43,543 nt of DNA from a virus (Duplodnaviria > Heunggongvirae > Uroviricota > Caudoviricetes). Below, piece after piece: positions 8,745-19,714 of this stretch (within the stretch, counting starts at the first letter, position 1; each line of letters starts with the position of its first letter). Position numbers and translations under genes: made by a program. The notes below the pieces were generated by a model. That model was not told the DNA's origin and searched no databases. It worked only from the letters and a program-made list of their open reading frames with translations. The stretch is from positions 1 to 43,543 of the IMG/VR virus record IMGVR_UViG_2541047719_000002. One strand, written 5' to 3'.

Positions 8745-9257
8745 TTATTTGCTCCTGTAGAATTCGCCGTGATGCTTTCTGGCAAAGTCGCAGTAAGCTT
8801 TTTTGGCATCTTCTAATTCATTAAAGTACCCTAGATGTTTTTTCTTTCCGTTTAATTTACCATAGGCAGCCCACTTTCTACTTTCCTTCTTCCATGTGAC
8901 TCCTTTGCAACCTGATTTGTTGAGGGTGTTTATTTTACTATTCATTGAATTCTGTGAGTAAGTTGCAAGCCTCAGATTGCAAATTCTGTTATCTGTCTTA
9001 ATGCCATTTATATGGTCGATAATACCTTCAGGCTCAACACCGAAAGTGATAATCCATGCAAGTCTATGTGCAGCATAGTGTCTTCCGTTAATGAAAATCC
9101 TTAAGTAGCCGCTTGTTGTTATTGTTCCGGCAGTTCCACCTATCTTCCTTGCTCCATAAGATTTTAGCCATGTGAACTCACCAGAAATAGGGTTATATTT
9201 GACAACATTATTAATCTCACTTAGGGAAATTAATTCAAGAATCTTTATAAATGCCAT
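8745..9257 (-). CDS. HNH homing endonuclease with AP2-like DNA-binding domain (copy 1)
   Basis: HNH_3-type motif (HRLAW...IDHINGIKTDNRICNLR) plus C-terminal AP2-like segment (GVTW...KWAAYGK...LGYF); start set at ATG 9255-9257; AT-rich gene. Confidence 0.8.
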   Translation of the reverse strand: MAFIKILELISLSEINNVVKYNPISGEFTWLKSYGARKIGGTAGTITTSGYLRIFINGRHYAAHRLAWIITFGVEPEGIIDHINGIKTDNRICNLRLATYSQNSMNSKINTLNKSGCKGVTWKKESRKWAAYGKLNGKKKHLGYFNELEDAKKAYCDFARKHHGEFYRSK

Positions 9258-9341
9258 TTTATATCCTATCAACTGCGTTCATTAATCAGCGTTTACGCTC
9301 ATGAATAAACACCTCTCGTGAAGCGTTATTGGTATGCATAT

Positions 9342-9365
9342 AAAAAAGCCCTCACACTGGAGGGC
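9342..9365 (-). terminator. Rho-independent terminator (minus strand)
   Basis: Minus-strand hairpin GCCCTC-CAGTGT-GAGGGC followed by TTTTTTAT; lies between 9502..9702 and HNH copy 1. Confidence 0.5.
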
Positions 9366-9501
9366 AAAGAAGATTTCCAATAATCAGAACAAGTCGGCTC
9401 CTGTTTAGTTACGAGCGACATTGCTCCGTGTATTCACTCGTTGGAATGAATACACAGTGCAGTGTTTATTCTGTTGTTTATGCCAAAAATGAAGGCCACC
9501 A

Positions 9502-9702
9502 TCAGGCAGCCTTGTTATTCTGTTTACCAAGTTCTCTGGCAATCATTGCCGTCGTTCGTATTGCCCATTTATCGACATATTTCCCATCCTCCATTACAGG
9601 AAACATTTCTTCAGGCTTAACCATGCATTCCGATTGCAGCTTGCATCCATTGCATCGCTTGAATTGTCCACACCATTGATTTTTATCAATAGTCGTAGTC
9701 AT
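9502..9702 (-). CDS. Hypothetical small Cys-rich protein
   Basis: 66-aa ORF with CxxxxxC...CxxC pattern (CGQFKRCNGCKLQSEC). Confidence 0.4.
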   Translation of the reverse strand: MTTTIDKNQWCGQFKRCNGCKLQSECMVKPEEMFPVMEDGKYVDKWAIRTTAMIARELGKQNNKAA

Positions 9703-9829
9703 ACGGATAGTCCTGGTATTGTTCCATCACATCCTGAGGATGCTCTTCGAACTCTTCAAATTCTTCTTCCATATATCACCTCTGTGGCTTGCTGCCAAAA
9801 CAATGAACCATCCGGAAATTCCAGATAGT

Positions 9830-10054
9830 TCATAATTCACTCTTCAATACTTCCAGCTTACTAATAGCCGAAAGATATCCGCGCTGATAGGGCATCATCA
9901 TTCCTTCGAGCTTGCCACTTCTTAACTCATCCCTGAGCAATTGTATTGCTTTATCAATAACCTCTGACTTAGCGTCCTTTATGGCTTGCTTGCGGGGCTT
10001 TGCTTTCTGCTTTGGCAGATTTCTCAAGCATGATGGAATGTATGTCTGATTCAT
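9830..10054 (-). CDS. Hypothetical small basic protein (early-left; cIII/kil position)
   Basis: 74-aa ORF from ATG 10052-10054, starting just after the stop of the N-like remnant. Confidence 0.4.
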   Translation of the reverse strand: MNQTYIPSCLRNLPKQKAKPRKQAIKDAKSEVIDKAIQLLRDELRSGKLEGMMMPYQRGYLSAISKLEVLKSEL

Positions 10055-10057
10055 CAC

Positions 10058-10204
10058 TTACCTCGCTGTCAGTTGTTTTGATTTCCGGTAGCCTGCCGAG
10101 TAAATGGCTACGTTTGGCAGGCACACAGCACCACCTTCAACTTCCTTCTAACGCGTTCCTGCAAGCGAAATGGCTCTTGAAACACGTTTACTGGCTCCGT
10201 CCAT
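10058..10204 (-). pseudogene. C-terminal remnant of an N-type (P22 gene 24-like) antiterminator gene, with in-frame TAG
   Basis: Minus-strand translation ...DGASKRVSRAISLAGTR-TAG-KEVEGGAVCLPNVAIYSAGYRKSKQLTAR-TAA matches my recollection of the P22 gp24 C-terminus (KAISLAGTRQKEVEGGSVLLPGVALYAAGHRKSKQITAR); TAG at 10148-10150 sits where P22 has Gln; 5' end overlaps the 3' end of HNH copy 2. Confidence 0.45.
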
Positions 10205-10721
10205 GATTTTCATGAAAGCCATATAGTGCATTGGCTTCTTTCCTTGCTTGTTTGGCATCATCTAAAAGTTTGAATGAGCCTAGGTATTTTCGTTTTCCAT
10301 CCACAGTTATCGATGCAACATAAAACCCATGCTCTTTTCTTTCTTCAACACCTGTAACTCCAGTTGATGAAGATGATTTTAAAGGCATGTTTTTCATATT
10401 CTCTTTGAAAGAAACGCTTCTTAAATTGGAGATTCTGTTGTCATCCTTAACGCCGTTTATGTGATCAATCACATCAGGCCAGTAGCCATGCACGTAAAGC
10501 CATGCAAGTCTGTGAGACTTAAATTTTTTACCTCCAATATTTATTCTCAGATAACCCTTGTTGTCAGGTGAGCCAGCCTTTTTACCTGGATACTTCTTGT
10601 TCCACGTCAAGGCAGCTCTGTTATCCGCAAACAAATGCTTTGCTCTCGGCTTCCAATAAAAGTCACCACTCACAGGATTGTAATGAAGAATCTCCCTTAC
10701 AGACACTTGAGTAAGATCCAC
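10188..10721 (-). CDS. HNH homing endonuclease with AP2-like domain (copy 2)
   Basis: 177-aa ORF, GTG start with AGGAGG RBS; HNH_3 motif (HRLAWLYVHGYWPDVIDHINGVKDDNRISNLR) and AP2-like C-terminus (GVTGV...LGSF...ALYGFHENHGRSQ). Confidence 0.8.
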   Translation of the reverse strand: MDLTQVSVREILHYNPVSGDFYWKPRAKHLFADNRAALTWNKKYPGKKAGSPDNKGYLRINIGGKKFKSHRLAWLYVHGYWPDVIDHINGVKDDNRISNLRSVSFKENMKNMPLKSSSSTGVTGVEERKEHGFYVASITVDGKRKYLGSFKLLDDAKQARKEANALYGFHENHGRSQ

Positions 10722-10857
10722 TTAAACCTCCTAACAAAAACACTTCAATAACCCTCCGGTTATGGAAATGTTCTTTTGTAGTGAGCAGCATTGCCGTTCA
10801 TCCTGAACCCGCCGCGCTCCCGACGCATGGTTTAAAGACGCGCCGTTCGTCTATGGG

Positions 10858-10952
10858 CTTATGATGTACTTAAAGTTCATTAATGTAAAGTACCAATAGT
10901 ACATTTTATGGGTATAAAAAGCTCACTACATCATAAGTTAGTGAACTTTAAG
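10858..10952 (-). promoter_or_regulatory. Candidate PL promoter and OL operator(s)
   Basis: Minus strand TTTACA-17 bp-CATCAT with an operator-like TGAACTTTAAGTACA (12/15 match to the OR palindrome) inside the spacer; second TGAAC half-site near 10942; immediately left of cI 3' end. Confidence 0.35.
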
Positions 10953-10963
10953 GAAATTTATTT

Positions 10964-11671
10964 TTATCCGAATCGCTTGTAATCGATTGACTGCCTAATG
11001 AGGACTTTGGCTAGAATGTGAAGTTGCTCTTCTTCACCTTCTTCTATGTACCATCGATCATAAGCGGCATTGTCAGAGATGACGGCAAGCCTGTTCTTTT
11101 GCATTTGCAGGCGCTTAACGTGCATTGTTTTCCCGTATACAAACACATAAATGCCATCGCCATCAAAATAGGTTATGGATACATCAACAAAGATCTCATC
11201 TCCCGGATTGATGGTTCCCTCCATGCTGTCACCGCGAACCGTGATGACTTTTACGCTTTCCTGTGGCCTTCCATTAAATAAAATTCTTGCCTGCTCGGGC
11301 GTATATTCAATTGCTCTTATCTTTTCTATAAATTCATTGGAAACCATGGTTCCTGGCCCGGCGCTCGCCTGAACATCCAATACATCAACACGATAAGAAT
11401 CATTTGATCTTGATAGATGATTTACCGTGATACCGTCATAATCAGCATAGCCATGCAGATATGCAGCAGTAGTTCCCAGCACCGAAGCCAGAGATTCCAT
11501 CTTGTCTTTTCTTGGTATTGACTCCCCGTTGAACCATTTACTAATGGCTTTTGGTGTGACCTTAAGCCTGACAGCTAAATCAGCCTGCCTACCATGCAAA
11601 GGTAATCCCGCTTTATCACAGGCCAGCGCAAGCCTCTGCGAGAAAGTTTCACGCTCTTTCTGTTGAACCAT
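10964..11671 (-). CDS. cI: CI-like prophage repressor (HTH plus LexA-like S24 autopeptidase domain)
   Basis: N-terminal HTH region (TFSQRLALACDKAGLPLHGRQADLAVRLKVTPKAISKWFNG) and C-terminal S24 motifs (GDSMEGTINPGDEIFVD...VKRL); start set at ATG 11669-11671; upstream ATGs at 11716 and 11728 are alternatives. Confidence 0.8.
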   Translation of the reverse strand: MVQQKERETFSQRLALACDKAGLPLHGRQADLAVRLKVTPKAISKWFNGESIPRKDKMESLASVLGTTAAYLHGYADYDGITVNHLSRSNDSYRVDVLDVQASAGPGTMVSNEFIEKIRAIEYTPEQARILFNGRPQESVKVITVRGDSMEGTINPGDEIFVDVSITYFDGDGIYVFVYGKTMHVKRLQMQKNRLAVISDNAAYDRWYIEEGEEEQLHILAKVLIRQSIDYKRFG

Positions 11672-11740
11672 AAGTTCAACTATATTAGGTATTGACTGTA
11701 CTATCAGTTCCGTCATAATATGAACCATAAGTTCACCACA
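11661..11740. promoter_or_regulatory. Divergent PRM/PR region with two copies of a 17-bp palindromic operator
   Basis: TTGAACCATAAGTTCAA at 11663..11679 and TGAACCATAAGTTCA at 11721..11735; PR TTGACT (11692-11697), 16-bp spacer, CATAAT (11714-11719) reading toward cro; leftward TAATAT 10 nt before the cI ATG. Confidence 0.55.
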
Positions 11741-11750
11741 GGAGAGAAGC

Positions 11751-11981
11751 ATGAACGAAGTTACGTTTGCAGAAGTTATCAAATCCGTTCGAGTTTCTGT
11801 TGTGGCTGATGTTTGTGGACTTACGCCAAAAGCCATCTATAAGTGGCTTGAGCGTGGTTCTCTGCCGCGCACCGAGTTCACTGGTGAAACCGAATATGCG
11901 GATAAGATCGCCAAGGCATCAGGCGGCAAGTACTCAGCAGCACAGATTCGCCGTATCGGTAAACAGCAGTTTGTCATGTAA
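11751..11981 (+). CDS. cro: Cro-like transcriptional regulator
   Basis: 76-aa ORF divergent from cI, immediately downstream of PR/operator; HTH-like segment (CGLTPKAIYKWLERGSLP). Confidence 0.6.
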   Translation: MNEVTFAEVIKSVRVSVVADVCGLTPKAIYKWLERGSLPRTEFTGETEYADKIAKASGGKYSAAQIRRIGKQQFVM

Positions 11982-12102
11982 TAAAAATGTACTTTCAGTA
12001 CCGAACGGCCCGGTATACGGTCGGGTGCCCGGCGTGGTCAAGGATGACTGTCAATGGTGCACGATAAAAAACCAAATTATTTACCTATGGAGATAGTAAG
12101 AA

Positions 12103-12399
12103 ATGGCACAAGCAAGCTACAGCAAGCCAACACAGCGAGAAATTGATCGCGCTGAAACTGATTTACTCATCAACCTGTCAACGCTTACCCAGCGCGGTCT
12201 GGCAAAGATGATTGGCTGTCATGAATCGAAGATAAGCAGAACGGACTGGAGATTTATTGCTTCGGTCTTGTGTGCTTTCGGAATGGCATCAGACATCAGT
12301 CCGATTAGCAGGGCTTTTAAGTATGCGCTTGATGAAATCACAAAGAAAAAATCCCCGGCTGCCACCGAGGATTTTAAGCAAATTGATATGCAATTCTGA
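12103..12399 (+). CDS. cII: CII-like transcriptional activator
   Basis: 98-aa ORF; HTH segment and C-terminus (KKKSPAATEDFKQIDMQF) resemble lambda CII (…KKRPAATERSEQIQMEF) as recalled; GGAG RBS. Confidence 0.8.
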   Translation: MAQASYSKPTQREIDRAETDLLINLSTLTQRGLAKMIGCHESKISRTDWRFIASVLCAFGMASDISPISRAFKYALDEITKKKSPAATEDFKQIDMQF

Positions 12400-12431
12400 G
12401 GGAATTACTGGATCAATCCACAGGAGTAATT

Positions 12432-12587
12432 ATGACAAAACGTCGTAAGAAATACCAGGAAAAAGAAGAGATTCGACACCCTGATTCACCTGAGGGATTA
12501 GTGGTAGCCGCAGCAAATAACAGGGCGTTCGCAGAGCGCCTTGTTGGTGTTTACAGACTAGCCAAAGCAGGAGTGAAACATGGGCGT
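12432..12587 (+). CDS. Hypothetical small basic protein between cII and replication genes
   Basis: 51-aa ORF not in the track, ATG with AGGAG RBS at 5-nt spacing; 3' end overlaps start of O-like gene. Confidence 0.35.
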
Positions 12588-13401
12588 CGTTAAGTTAGCT
12601 GATTACAGGCCTCAACTGGAGGTCGTGGAGCATCGCGTGGCAGATACCGAAGATGGTTTCATGCGCGTTGCTAACGAGATTACCGACAGTCTGCTGATGG
12701 CTGATTTAACCGTCCGGCAGTTGAAGGTGATGCTCGCTATCATGCGCAAGACATACGGATTCAATAAGCCGATGGATCGACTCACAAACACGCAGATAGC
12801 AGCCATGACAGGTATTCATCACACTCATGTTTGCGCTGCCAAGCACCAGCTTATCGAGCGTAAATTCCTCATTGCTGATGGCGTGAAAATCGGAGTGAAC
12901 AAGGTGGTTTCTCAGTGGATTAGCCAGGACAGCTTAACATTAGCTAAAACAGCTAATAAAACATTAGCCAAGTCGGCTAATGGGTATAAGCCAAGTCAGC
13001 TAAACACAAAAGACAATATACAAAAGACAATAAATACAAATACCCCCTTACCCCCTAACGGGGGTGGCGATGGGCAGGTTAAACCTGAACGTCGCAAGGC
13101 AGAACGAATCGACTACGAATCCTTCCTGAACGCCTACAACACCGAAGTCGGTGACAGACTGCCACACGCTGTTGCGGTCAACGAGAAACGCAAACGCCGC
13201 CTGAAGAAAATCATCCCGCAACTGAAAACGCCAAACGTGGACGGTTTCAGAGCGTATGTCAGGGCGTTTGTGCATCAGGCCAAGCCGTTTTACTTCGGAG
13301 ACAACGACACGGGCTGGACAGCTGATTTTGATTACCTGCTGAGGGAAGATTCGTTAACGGGAGTACGGGAAGGGAAGTTTGCAGACAGGGGGATTGCATG
13401 A
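12580..13401 (+). CDS. Replication initiation protein (lambda O-like N-terminal domain)
   Basis: 273-aa ORF; N-terminal region typical of phage O-type initiators; contains internal iterons; ATGA overlap with helicase gene. Confidence 0.8.
12922..13045. repeat. ori: Candidate replication origin: four iterons AGCYAnnnCnGCTAA plus adjacent AT-rich tract, inside the O-like gene
   Basis: Iterons start at 12922, 12942, 12966, 12989 (spacing 20-24 bp), followed by AT-rich 13004..13045; same arrangement as lambda ori within O. Confidence 0.55.
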
Positions 13402-18479: not shown

Positions 18480-18664
18480 ACGCCACAATTCAAACAATAC
18501 CAGAGCTACTTATCCAGACACGAGGCAATCAGACCGAAGTGGCGAGGATGCTTTCCTGCGCAAGAGGAACAGTGCTCAAGTACAACCGAGACAGCAAAGG
18601 CGAGCGTCACGTAATAGTTAACGGCGTCCTGATGGTCAAACAGGGCAAGAGGGGAAGACCATGA
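18476..18664 (+). CDS. ninH: NinH-like protein
   Basis: 62-aa ORF similar to recalled lambda NinH (…GNQTEVARMLSCARGTVLKY…). Confidence 0.75.
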   Translation: MNATIQTIPELLIQTRGNQTEVARMLSCARGTVLKYNRDSKGERHVIVNGVLMVKQGKRGRP

Positions 18665-19284
18665 GACTCGAAAGCGTAGCTAAATTTCACTCGCCAAAAA
18701 GCCCGATGATGAGCGACTCACCACGGGCTACGGCTTCTGACTCTCTTTCCGGTACTGATGTGATGGCTGCTATGGGGATGGCGCAATCACAAGCCGGATT
18801 CGGAATGGCTGCATTCTGCGGTAAGCATGAACTCAGCCAGAACGACAAACAAAAGGCTATCAACTACCTGATGCAATTTGCACACAAGGTATCGGGGAAA
18901 TACCGTGGCGTGGCAAAGCTTGAAGGAAATACTAAGGCAAAGGTACTGCAAGTGCTCGCAACATTCGCTTATGCGGATTATTGCCGTAGTGCCGCGACGC
19001 CGGGCGCAAGATGCAGAGATTGCCACGGTACAGGCCGTGCGGTTGATATAGCAAAAACAGAGCAGTGGGGGAGAGTTGTTGAGAAAGAGTGCGGAAGATG
19101 CAAAGGTGTCGGCTATTCAAGAATGCCAGCAAGCGCCGCATATCGCGCTGTAACGATGCTAATCCCAAACCTTACCCAACCCACCTGGTCACGAACTGTT
19201 AAGCCGCTGTATGACGCTCTGGTGGTGCAATGCCACAAGGAAGAGTCAATCGCAGACAACATTTTGAACGCGGTCACACGTTAG
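18661..19284 (+). CDS. Q: Late-gene antiterminator Q (lambda Q)
   Basis: 207-aa ORF recalled as essentially identical to lambda Q (MRLESVAKFHSPKSPMMSDSPRATASDSLSGTDVMAAMGMAQSQ...). Confidence 0.95.
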   Translation: MRLESVAKFHSPKSPMMSDSPRATASDSLSGTDVMAAMGMAQSQAGFGMAAFCGKHELSQNDKQKAINYLMQFAHKVSGKYRGVAKLEGNTKAKVLQVLATFAYADYCRSAATPGARCRDCHGTGRAVDIAKTEQWGRVVEKECGRCKGVGYSRMPASAAYRAVTMLIPNLTQPTWSRTVKPLYDALVVQCHKEESIADNILNAVTR

Positions 19285-19558: not shown

Positions 19559-19633
19559 GGGTCAGTCGTATAAAGGTAATCACGGAAGGCTGTTAACCTT
19601 CTTATCGTGGTTCGAGTCCACGCTGTCCCGCCA
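19559..19633 (+). tRNA. tRNA-Asn-like (anticodon GUU), atypical, possibly degenerate
   Basis: Anticodon stem GAAGG/CCTTC with loop CTGTTAA; T-arm CGTGG-TTCGAGT-CCACG; discriminator G and encoded CCA; acceptor stem 6/7 with a U-U mismatch; D-arm pairs poorly. Confidence 0.45.
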
Positions 19634-19638
19634 AACAT

Positions 19639-19714
19639 GCTGGTTTAGCTCCAATGGTAGAGCAGTCGCCTTGTAAGCGAATGGGTAGCGGTTCAAGTCC
19701 GTTAACCAGCACCA
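19639..19714 (+). tRNA. tRNA-Thr (anticodon UGU)
   Basis: 76-nt cloverleaf folded by hand: perfect 7-bp acceptor stem GCTGGTT/AACCAGC, D-arm GCTC-CAATGGTA-GAGC, anticodon loop CTTGTAA, T-arm AGCGG-TTCAAGT-CCGTT, encoded CCA. Confidence 0.75.

What the first reader, a model, noticed from the sequence alone, without database searches (positions are those of the whole stretch)
10058..10829. N-type antiterminator gene apparently disrupted by homing-endonuclease insertion, with an in-frame TAG in the remnant
Immediately 3' of HNH copy 2 the minus strand encodes ...AISLAGTR-TAG-KEVEGGAVCLPNVAIYSAGYRKSKQLTAR, which matches my recollection of the P22 gene 24 (N analogue) C-terminus with TAG where P22 has Gln. 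Upstream of the HNH gene a 22-codon ORF (10760..10828, MRRERGGFRMNGNAAHYKRTFP) is Arg-rich and contains GNA, reminiscent of an N arginine-rich motif. If N is split and also carries an amber codon, the prophage is either defective for delayed-early expression, N-independent, or dependent on an amber-suppressor host.
Basis: partly seen in the sequence, partly recalled or inferred. Interest (0 to 1): 0.75.

Follow-up and report, generated by a model that had tools for sequence, protein, structure and literature searches.

The report
Leftover N-gene fragment beside putL antiterminator RNA
The stretch holds a dead 3' remnant of a phage N antiterminator gene next to an HNH endonuclease gene. The supposed N-terminal half is actually the HK022-type putL RNA, which lets this prophage read through terminators without any N protein, so the arrangement is ordinary and already explained.

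Summary
The sequence facts hold. The minus strand at 10192..10058 encodes the last 44 codons of an N-family antiterminator (Pfam N_peptide, E 3e-16; 73% identical to P22 gp24). TAG at 10150..10148 sits where P22 gp24 has Gln71 and where relatives have CAG. An intact HNH gene (10721..10188) lies just upstream.

The 22-codon "Arg-rich ORF" is not an N fragment. It lies inside putL, the cis-acting antiterminator RNA of phage HK022. The window matches HK022 putL at nucleotides +1..+73 (10854..10782). It also carries an exact putR (12006..12062) between cro and cII.

No N 5' half, arginine-rich motif, nut site, Nun or suppressor tRNA is found anywhere in the window. The phage is therefore N-independent by the known put mechanism, and the N piece is a mosaic relic. 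NCBI's pipeline already annotates it as a pseudogene in sister prophages.

The same putL-HNH-N' module occurs in plaque-forming Salmonella phage UPF_BP1 and about 15 other prophage loci. The TAG allele is in 10 of them. Relatives lacking the HNH gene keep even less of N, so the HNH gene cannot be shown to have broken N.

Low interest; new member of a known kind.

The parts
10964..11671 (-). HK022-type cI repressor gene (235 aa). The mechanical ORF list over-extends it to 11836.
   Evidence: 99.5% DNA identity to HK022/O276 over window 11000..10779. PGAP annotates a 708-nt CDS in sister prophages, which maps to these coordinates.
10861..10889 (-). PL promoter (TTTACA, 17-nt spacer, CATCAT). The transcript starts at the A at 10854.
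   Evidence: Promoter scan. O276 annotates the HK022 pL -35/-10 at the homologous positions. The start site is set by matching residue numbers in the cryo-EM paper PMC9378689.
10781..10854 (-). putL, the cis-acting antiterminator RNA, nucleotides +1..+74. The structured part, A3..C72, is 10852..10783.
   Evidence: 100% identical to HK022, HK75, O276 and APC_JM3.2 putL over +1..+73. The only difference is C for U at +74, beyond the last paired residue C72. Residues named in PMC9378689 (A3-G7, A8, A9, U21, C25, U28, U32, G35, G43, G45, A64, U68, C72) all fall on the right letters (sequence).
10760..10828 (-). Not a gene: it spans putL nucleotides +27 to +95.
   Evidence: Coordinates. No family hit and no similarity to N or Nun. 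No Shine-Dalgarno sequence precedes its ATG (sequence).
10736..10775 (-). Long hairpin in the 59-nt spacer between putL and the HNH gene. It has an A-tract 5' arm and a U-tract 3' arm and looks like a terminator. It is part of the HNH cassette.
   Evidence: MFE -23.6 kcal/mol, z -3.3, 0 of 200 shuffles fold as well. The spacer is identical in 16 related loci and differs by one loop base in a 17th, L022.
10188..10721 (-). HNH endonuclease gene (177 aa, GTG start after AGGAGG). First gene of the PL operon.
   Evidence: Pfam HNH_3 E 2.7e-15. 96% aa identity to the UPF_BP1 HNH endonuclease, otherwise below 60% identity to 3452 phage records. Reading frame open to within one codon of full length in all 17 related loci (16 full length, L022 one codon short), 11 alleles, pN/pS 0.31.
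10058..10192 (-). N' pseudogene: the last 44 codons of an N-family antiterminator plus its stop codon. In-frame TAG at 10150..10148.
   Evidence: PGAP annotates the homologous stretch in E. coli prophages as 'transcriptional antitermination N peptide, incomplete, missing N-terminus'.
9830..10057 (-). orf75 (phrog_5305, function unknown). This gene normally follows N in mEp213/mEpX2-type phages, and its ribosome-binding site (GAGG) lies in the last N codons.
   Evidence: sequence.
12006..12062 (+). putR, the second put antiterminator RNA, between cro (11751..11981) and cII (12103..12399).
   Evidence: Exact 57/57 match to the putR annotated in O276 (HK022 putR).

Best explanation
This is the left early region of a P22-like E. 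coli prophage of the Kapi1/CUS-3 type. It carries the HK022 immunity and antitermination module: cI, PL, putL, and cro-putR-cII.

Inferred mechanism, by identity with HK022: RNA polymerase starting at PL transcribes the 73-nt putL RNA. That RNA folds into two stem-loops, binds the beta-prime zinc-binding domain of the same polymerase, and makes it resistant to pausing and to intrinsic and Rho-dependent terminators. putR does the same for the PR transcript. No N protein is needed.

In HK022 the slot after putL holds nun. Here it holds a cassette made of a terminator-like hairpin, an intact HNH endonuclease gene, and the last 44 codons of an N gene. That N piece is a non-functional relic of mosaic recombination with an N-encoding lambdoid phage. 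It has no start codon in context, no arginine-rich motif and no nut sites to act on. Its CAG-to-TAG change is a neutral mutation inherited by a sub-lineage of the cassette.

Shown here: the sequence identities, the domain content and the distribution among relatives. Inferred: that put actually works in this prophage and that N' is untranslated or functionless.
For: putL matches HK022 at 73 of 73 positions. putR matches at 57 of 57. Residue numbering agrees with the cryo-EM and mutagenesis paper at every residue checked. That paper states that HK022 lacks an N-like factor and relies solely on put.

The only N-family match in all six frames of the window is residues 44-87 at 10192..10061. There is no Nun and no boxA/boxB or P22/mEpX2 nut-like sequence near PL or PR. 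PHROG scans of ten PL-operon ORFs find ral, kil, erf, ssb and abc2, and six unknowns, but no antiterminator.

Terminator-like hairpins lie downstream in the PL operon at 9513..9492 and 9365..9348.

The same putL-HNH-N' module is present at 97.9% identity in Salmonella phage UPF_BP1. UPF_BP1 was isolated as a phage with lytic activity. Phage APC_JM3.2 has putL followed by only 27 N codons.

The TAG allele is found in L007, L008, L010-L013 and L018-L020. CAG is found in UPF_BP1, L009, L014-L017 and L022. PGAP already calls the remnant a pseudogene.
Against: No functional data exist for this prophage. put activity also depends on the host rpoC allele and on correct co-transcriptional folding.

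The sequence downstream of putL differs from HK022 from +74 on, so the known put-dependent pause 21 nt after stem II is not conserved.

A role for the short N' peptides cannot be excluded. These are an 18-aa ORF from the ATG at 10204, a 22-aa ORF from the GTG at 10126, and 48-58 aa versions in loci with the CAG allele.

Rfam has no put family, so the RNA call rests on identity to annotated phage records and to the literature, not on a curated model.
Confidence: 0.88

Rival explanations
1. One reading: an N gene was split by insertion of the homing-endonuclease gene. The 22-codon ORF is the N-terminal RNA-binding fragment and the TAG-bearing piece is the C-terminal fragment, so the phage is N-defective or depends on a suppressor.
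For: The C-terminal piece is truly N-derived, and the TAG sits at the position of Gln71 of P22 gp24. N homology begins within 2 codons of the HNH stop codon.
Against: The 22-codon ORF is putL sequence shared with HK022, a phage that has no N. It shows no similarity to any N terminus. About 43 N codons are missing altogether, and there are no nut sites. Alleles without the HNH gene but with identical flanks have a shorter N remnant, not an intact N. The window encodes no suppressor tRNA.
Confidence: 0.03
2. The prophage is defective for delayed-early expression. It is a decaying prophage in which N has been lost and put is only a vestige.
For: The N remnant carries a nonsense codon. Two HNH genes sit in the PL operon. 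No experimental data are available.
Against: putL and putR are both letter-perfect copies of the characterised HK022 elements. The window encodes what looks like a full P22-type set of integrase, recombination, replication, Q, lysis, terminase, portal, coat and tailspike ORFs. It is 96% identical to the isolated phage Kapi1 over 73% of the right arm. Isolated phages UPF_BP1 and APC_JM3.2 share the N-less arrangement.
Confidence: 0.07
3. The N' remnant is kept because it is functional. One possibility is a short C-terminal N peptide that contacts RNA polymerase. Another is a sequence needed in cis by the HNH cassette, such as a co-converted homing flank or an immunity polymorphism of the endonuclease target.
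For: N codons 44-62 travel with the HNH gene in all 17 loci, while the sequence further 3' is of at least four different kinds. In CAG-allele loci an ATG-started ORF of 48-58 aa exists and is annotated 'gp24 protein' in UPF_BP1. In loci without the HNH gene a 27-codon piece follows an AAGGAGG motif and is annotated as a CDS.
Against: Ten loci, including the window, carry TAG, which cuts the ORF to 18 codons. There is no Shine-Dalgarno sequence before the ATG at 10204. Linkage to the HNH gene is expected from simple physical proximity. The 3' end of N also carries the ribosome-binding site of the next gene, which explains why it persists.
Confidence: 0.1

Closest known systems
Phage HK022 early region (cI-PL-putL-nun; cro-putR-cII), also HK75 and O276
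   Same: The cI 3' end, the operators, PL and putL are 99.5% identical over 222 nt, and putL itself is 73/73. putR is 57/57. The put elements sit in the same positions relative to PL and to cro/cII.
   Different: The gene after putL is not nun but an HNH endonuclease gene plus an N 3' remnant. Identity stops at putL +74. The virion and replication modules are P22-like (Kapi1/CUS-3), not HK97-like.
Salmonella phage UPF_BP1 (KX776161, Lederbergvirus)
   Same: It has the same putL, 59-nt hairpin spacer, HNH gene and N codons 44-62 at 97.9% identity. The HNH protein is 96% identical.
   Different: It has a different repressor and operators. Its putL stem I carries compensatory changes. It has CAG instead of TAG. 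After codon 62 its remnant continues into unrelated sequence, giving a 58-aa ORF annotated 'gp24 protein'.
Antiterminators P22 gp24, lambda N, and mEpX2/mEp213 N (Pfam PF25694 N_peptide)
   Same: The C-terminal 44 residues are homologous: 73% identity to gp24 and 70% to mEpX2 N.
   Different: The N-terminal 43 residues with the arginine-rich motif are missing. There is an in-frame TAG, and the genome has no nutL or nutR. This is a relic of the family, not a functional member.
Free-standing HNH homing endonucleases of phages (HNH_3 with or without AP2 type)
   Same: It has the HNH_3 domain. Distribution across unrelated phages is patchy, with 3454 records mostly below 50% identity. Presence and absence both occur at the same locus in two different immunity backgrounds.
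   Different: Cleavage specificity and homing have not been demonstrated. The alleles with and without the HNH gene differ by a replacement, not by a clean insertion.

Membership tests
N-family transcription antiterminator (P22 gp24 / lambda N; Pfam PF25694) | Sequence homology to the family | tested here: met
   Met for the C-terminal part only. Pfam E 3.1e-16, profile positions 57-100 of 100. 73% identity to P22 gp24 residues ~57-100.
N-family transcription antiterminator (P22 gp24 / lambda N; Pfam PF25694) | N-terminal arginine-rich motif that binds boxB RNA | tested here: not met
   tblastn with two intact N proteins finds nothing for residues 1-43 anywhere in the window (best E 0.015-0.17, unrelated loci). 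The 22-codon ORF does not align with the motif.
N-family transcription antiterminator (P22 gp24 / lambda N; Pfam PF25694) | Complete, uninterrupted reading frame | tested here: not met
   In-frame TAG at 10150..10148. Homology begins at codon 44, immediately after the HNH gene.
N-family transcription antiterminator (P22 gp24 / lambda N; Pfam PF25694) | Cognate nut sites (boxA + boxB) downstream of PL and PR | tested here: not met
   No boxA consensus in the early region, and no match to P22 nutL/nutR or to the mEpX2 nutL region. Those positions hold putL and putR.
HK022 put antiterminator RNA | ~70-nt two-stem-loop RNA with the conserved, mutation-sensitive residues (A3-G7, U28, G35, G45, A64) | tested here: met
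   +1..+73 is identical to HK022 putL. Residue positions agree with PMC9378689. Variant putL sequences in sister loci change A3-U19 and A5-U17 to U-A, which is compensatory (read).
HK022 put antiterminator RNA | putL directly after the PL start site, and a second copy (putR) downstream of cro | tested here: met
   PL -10 ends at 10861 and putL +1 is at 10854. putR lies at 12006..12062 between cro and cII.
HK022 put antiterminator RNA | Factor-independent antitermination through the RNA polymerase beta-prime zinc-binding domain | not testable with these tools
   Needs reporter assays or in vitro transcription, and rpoC mutants.
Free-standing HNH homing endonuclease | HNH catalytic domain in an intact ORF | tested here: met
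   HNH_3 E 2.7e-15. Frame open to within one codon of full length in all 17 related loci (L022 stops one codon early), pN/pS 0.31.
Free-standing HNH homing endonuclease | Presence/absence polymorphism at one locus among otherwise similar genomes | tested here: met
   HK022-type cI background: the window, L007 and L008 have the gene; S56 lacks it. XRE-type repressor background: L010 and L011 have it; PEC122 and APC_JM3.2 lack it.
Free-standing HNH homing endonuclease | Site-specific cleavage of the allele that lacks the gene, followed by gene conversion | not testable with these tools
   Requires purified enzyme or co-infection crosses.
Nun (HK022 exclusion/termination factor) | A nun gene in the slot after putL | tested here: not met
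   tblastn with O276 Nun gives no hit better than E 0.29.

The most novel reading that the evidence does not exclude
The cassette (hairpin, HNH gene, N codons 44-62) may be a homing element specialised for the first slot of the PL operon of put-type lambdoid phages. Its endonuclease would cut the conserved AISLAGTRQKEVEGG-coding segment of N genes, or the allele lacking the HNH gene, in co-infecting or resident phages. That would spread the cassette and erode N genes, and the carried N' piece (including its TAG/CAG polymorphism) would be the co-converted or cleavage-immune flank. A second, unrelated HNH gene inserted inside putL in two sister loci hints that this PL-proximal spot is a hotspot for homing endonucleases.
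Probability: 0.1. Interest if true: 0.5.

Novelty: new member of a known kind. Interest (0 to 1): 0.18.

Why it matters
It matters mainly as a correction. A stretch that looks like a broken, amber-bearing N gene is a harmless relic in a phage that uses the well-described HK022 put RNAs instead of N.

It adds a small amount of natural history. put-type antitermination is rare: 37 of 5426 complete E. coli genomes and 8 distinct phages in the collections searched. It occurs in P22-like podoviruses as well as in HK022-like siphoviruses. The slot behind putL is a variable cargo site holding nun, an HNH gene, N relics or unknown genes.

No open question becomes newly testable.

Tried and rejected
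- **Rfam.** A scan of window 9000-13000 at E<=1 found no put, nut or other relevant family, only sub-threshold noise such as mir-7927 on the spacer hairpin. Rfam appears to have no put model.
- **NCBIfam.** Nothing for the remnant, the 22-aa ORF or the HNH protein.
- **Other N or Nun copies.** tblastn for the N 5' half and for Nun across all six frames found none.
- **nut sites.** A search for boxA/boxB and for the P22 and mEpX2 nut regions found none.
- **Empty site.** I looked for a clean empty site for the HNH gene. The HNH-less alleles (S56, PEC122, APC_JM3.2) share the left boundary (putL +73/74) and a right boundary at the N-gene hexamer TTGAAG. Between these they carry about 60 nt of HK022 sequence plus 27 nt of unknown origin. 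The difference is therefore a cassette replacement, not an insertion or excision.
- **Intron in L015/L016.** I considered that the second HNH gene inside putL might be a group I intron. Rfam finds no intron there, and I did not pursue it.
- **Suppressor tRNA.** I considered a phage-encoded amber suppressor. The only tRNAs are Asn(GTT) and Thr(TGT).
- **Not used.** The large protein searches, structure prediction and metagenome scans were not run, because the DNA-level identities settled the question.

Full report
**What is in the sequence**

All features below are on the minus strand, read from 11671 down to 9830.
- A repressor gene at 11671..10964.
- A sigma-70 promoter, TTTACA-17-CATCAT, at 10889..10861.
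- A GC-rich leader.
- A 177-aa HNH ORF at 10721..10188.
- A frame reading SKRVSRAISLAGTR-TAG-KEVEGGAVCLPNVAIYSAGYRKSKQLTAR-TAA, at 10192..10058.
- A 75-aa ORF at 10057..9830.

**The C-terminal piece is a real N remnant**

- With TAG read as Q, the 48-aa translation hits Pfam PF25694 "Transcriptional antitermination N peptide". E is 3.1e-16 and the score 60 bits (cut-off 27.9), matching only profile positions 57-100 of 100.
- tblastn with the intact N of phage mEpX2 aligns residues 44-87 to window 10192..10061 (E 2e-16).
- P22 gene 24, fetched from NC_002371, aligns at 73% identity. Gln71 of gp24 falls on the TAG.
- DNA alignments show CAG at that codon in mEpX2 N and in UPF_BP1.

**The "N-terminal fragment" is putL**

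megablast of window 11000..9800 against phage records shows that the first 222 nt (window 11000..10779) are 99.5% identical to HK022, HK75 and O276. That stretch covers the cI 3' end, OL/PL and the element those records annotate as "putL antiterminator RNA".

I took the A at 10854 as +1. The transcript then begins AUAGACGAACGGCGCGUCUUUAAACCAUG... This numbering reproduces every residue named in the cryo-EM and mutagenesis study of HK022 putRNA (PMC9378689):
- the A3-G7 / C15-U19 duplex;
- U21-C25;
- the -10-like AACCAU at +23..+28, with U28;
- U32, G35, G43, G45 and A64;
- the U68 wedge;
- the last paired residue, C72.

The window matches HK022 at +1..+73 and first differs at +74 (C for U).

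The 22-codon ORF starts at +27. Its Arg codons are the stem sequence CGUCGGGAGCGCGG. In HK022 the same frame is open for 16 codons (read). It has no Shine-Dalgarno sequence, no family hit and no similarity to the arginine-rich motif of N or Nun.

**The second put site is present too**

The 57-nt putR annotated in O276 occurs exactly at window 12006..12062, between cro (11751..11981) and cII (12103..12399).

**Nothing N-like or nut-like is found elsewhere**

- Six-frame searches with two intact N proteins and with Nun give only the remnant.
- There is no boxA/boxB and no match to P22 nutL/nutR or the mEpX2 nutL region in the early region.
- PHROG scans of ten PL-operon ORFs find ral, kil, erf, ssb and abc2, and six with no known function, but no antiterminator.
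- The window's two tRNAs are Asn and Thr, not suppressors.

**How the locus most likely works**

[quoted passage not shown] The nascent put RNA binds the beta-prime zinc-binding domain of the polymerase that made it. It suppresses pausing and both intrinsic and Rho-dependent termination, for at least 10 kb.

This window has letter-perfect putL and putR in the canonical positions. The best explanation is therefore that the prophage is N-independent by the same mechanism.

Polymerase modified by putL would read through three structures:
- the hairpin in the 59-nt spacer (10775..10736; z -3.3);
- the hairpin at 9513..9492;
- the hairpin at 9365..9348.

It would then express the HNH gene first, followed by orf75, ral, a second HNH gene, kil, erf, ssb and abc2.

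The identities are shown. That put functions here is inferred.

**Relatives**

The module of putL, 59-nt spacer, HNH gene and N codons 44-62 is found in:
- Salmonella phage UPF_BP1, at 97.9% identity, which was isolated as a phage with lytic activity;
- several E. coli prophages;
- ten IMG/VR viral contigs, one of which (L021) appears to be the UPF_BP1 genome itself.

In the sister prophages NCBI's PGAP pipeline already annotates the remnant as [quoted passage not shown].

Codon status at the TAG position:
- TAG: L007, L008, L010-L013 and L018-L020.
- CAG: UPF_BP1, L009, L014-L017 and L022.

So the TAG is a natural, inherited allele, not a sequencing error or a laboratory amber.

Beyond codon 62 the remnant continues in at least four different ways: mEp213-like, mEpX2-like, P22-like, and unrelated non-N sequence. 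This is the usual lambdoid mosaicism.

The HNH ORF is full length in 16 of the 17 loci and one codon shorter in L022 (11 alleles, pN/pS 0.31). It belongs to a very large family of phage HNH endonucleases with patchy distribution.

**Did the HNH gene break N?**

This cannot be shown. Genomes with the same flanks but no HNH gene exist in both immunity backgrounds:
- E. coli S56, with HK022-type cI;
- E. coli PEC122 and phage APC_JM3.2, with an XRE-type repressor.

In these, putL is followed by about 60 nt of HK022 sequence, 27 nt of unknown origin, and only the last 27 N codons. The two allele types share their boundaries (putL +73/74 on the left; the hexamer TTGAAG in N on the right) but differ by replacement.

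N is truncated in both, and more severely where the HNH gene is absent. Other put phages carry nun (HK022, HK75, O276) or an unknown 157-aa gene (phiEt88) in this slot.

The simplest reading is that put-type phages do not need N. The slot behind putL is then free to hold variable cargo and relics. The extreme 3' end of N tends to survive because it is a module boundary and carries the ribosome-binding site of the next gene.

**Verdict**

- **Observation:** partly confirmed. The N remnant, the TAG and the HNH gene are real. The resemblance to an arginine-rich motif is not.
- **Interpretation:** partly supported.
- **Novelty:** a further member of a known kind, namely an HK022-type put early region in a P22-like prophage with an HNH gene in place of nun.
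- **Interest:** low.

Noticed in passing
L015 ~1378-1945 (also L016); IMG/VR UViG_2721755627_000002 and UViG_2939071209_000003: A second, unrelated HNH ORF (138 aa, L015 1484..1900) sits inside putL. Stem I (...CCATGCGTCGG) is separated by about 500 nt from the rest (GGCGGGTTCAGG...GCTGCTCAC), and put nucleotides ~+36..+41 are missing. The usual spacer-HNH-N' cassette follows. putL looks disrupted in these two prophages. Rfam finds no intron.
   Followed up: partly
window 10775..10736 (-): The 59-nt spacer between putL and the HNH start codon forms a long hairpin with an A-tract 5' arm and a U-tract 3' arm (-23.6 kcal/mol, z -3.3). It is identical in 16 HNH-bearing loci and differs by one loop base in L022. 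It looks like an intrinsic terminator that put-modified polymerase would have to read through. The terminator scan missed it because it has few G-C pairs.
   Followed up: partly
window 8745..9272 (-), with hairpin 9365..9348 (-): A second HNH endonuclease gene (175 aa; HNH_3 plus a weak AP2 match) lies further down the PL operon between ral and kil. It is only 38% identical to the first and is preceded by a good terminator-like hairpin, GCCCTC-N6-GAGGGC-TTTTTT.
   Followed up: partly
putL of L002, L010, L011, L014, L018-L022 versus the window (upstream rows): putL variants linked to other immunity types read AUGUCG...CGACA where HK022 reads AUAGACG...CGUCU. Pairs A3-U19 and A5-U17 of the cryo-EM stem I duplex become U-A (compensatory changes), while everything from about +23 onward is unchanged.
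   Followed up: partly
L005 ~1770-1884 and L006 1658..1741: In alleles without the HNH gene, the last 27 N codons follow AAGGAGG-N6-TTG and are annotated by PGAP as an intact 27-aa 'N peptide' CDS. I did not examine whether this micro-ORF is translated or has any role.
   Followed up: no
window 19559..19714 (+): Two adjacent tRNA genes, tRNA-Asn(GTT) and tRNA-Thr(TGT), lie between the Q-like gene (18661..19284) and the lysis genes.
   Followed up: no
window 10964..11836 (-): The mechanical ORF list gives a 290-aa repressor ORF. The HK022-type cI annotated in relatives is 235 aa (11671..10964). The extension runs across the PR/PRM region and is an artefact of taking the first ATG.
   Followed up: yes
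whole window: The backbone is a P22-like podovirus prophage. The right arm is 96% identical to phage Kapi1 over 73% of 24.5 kb, and also close to CUS-3. It combines this with HK022 immunity and put. A putL-like sequence occurs in only 37 of 5426 complete E. coli genomes.
   Followed up: partly
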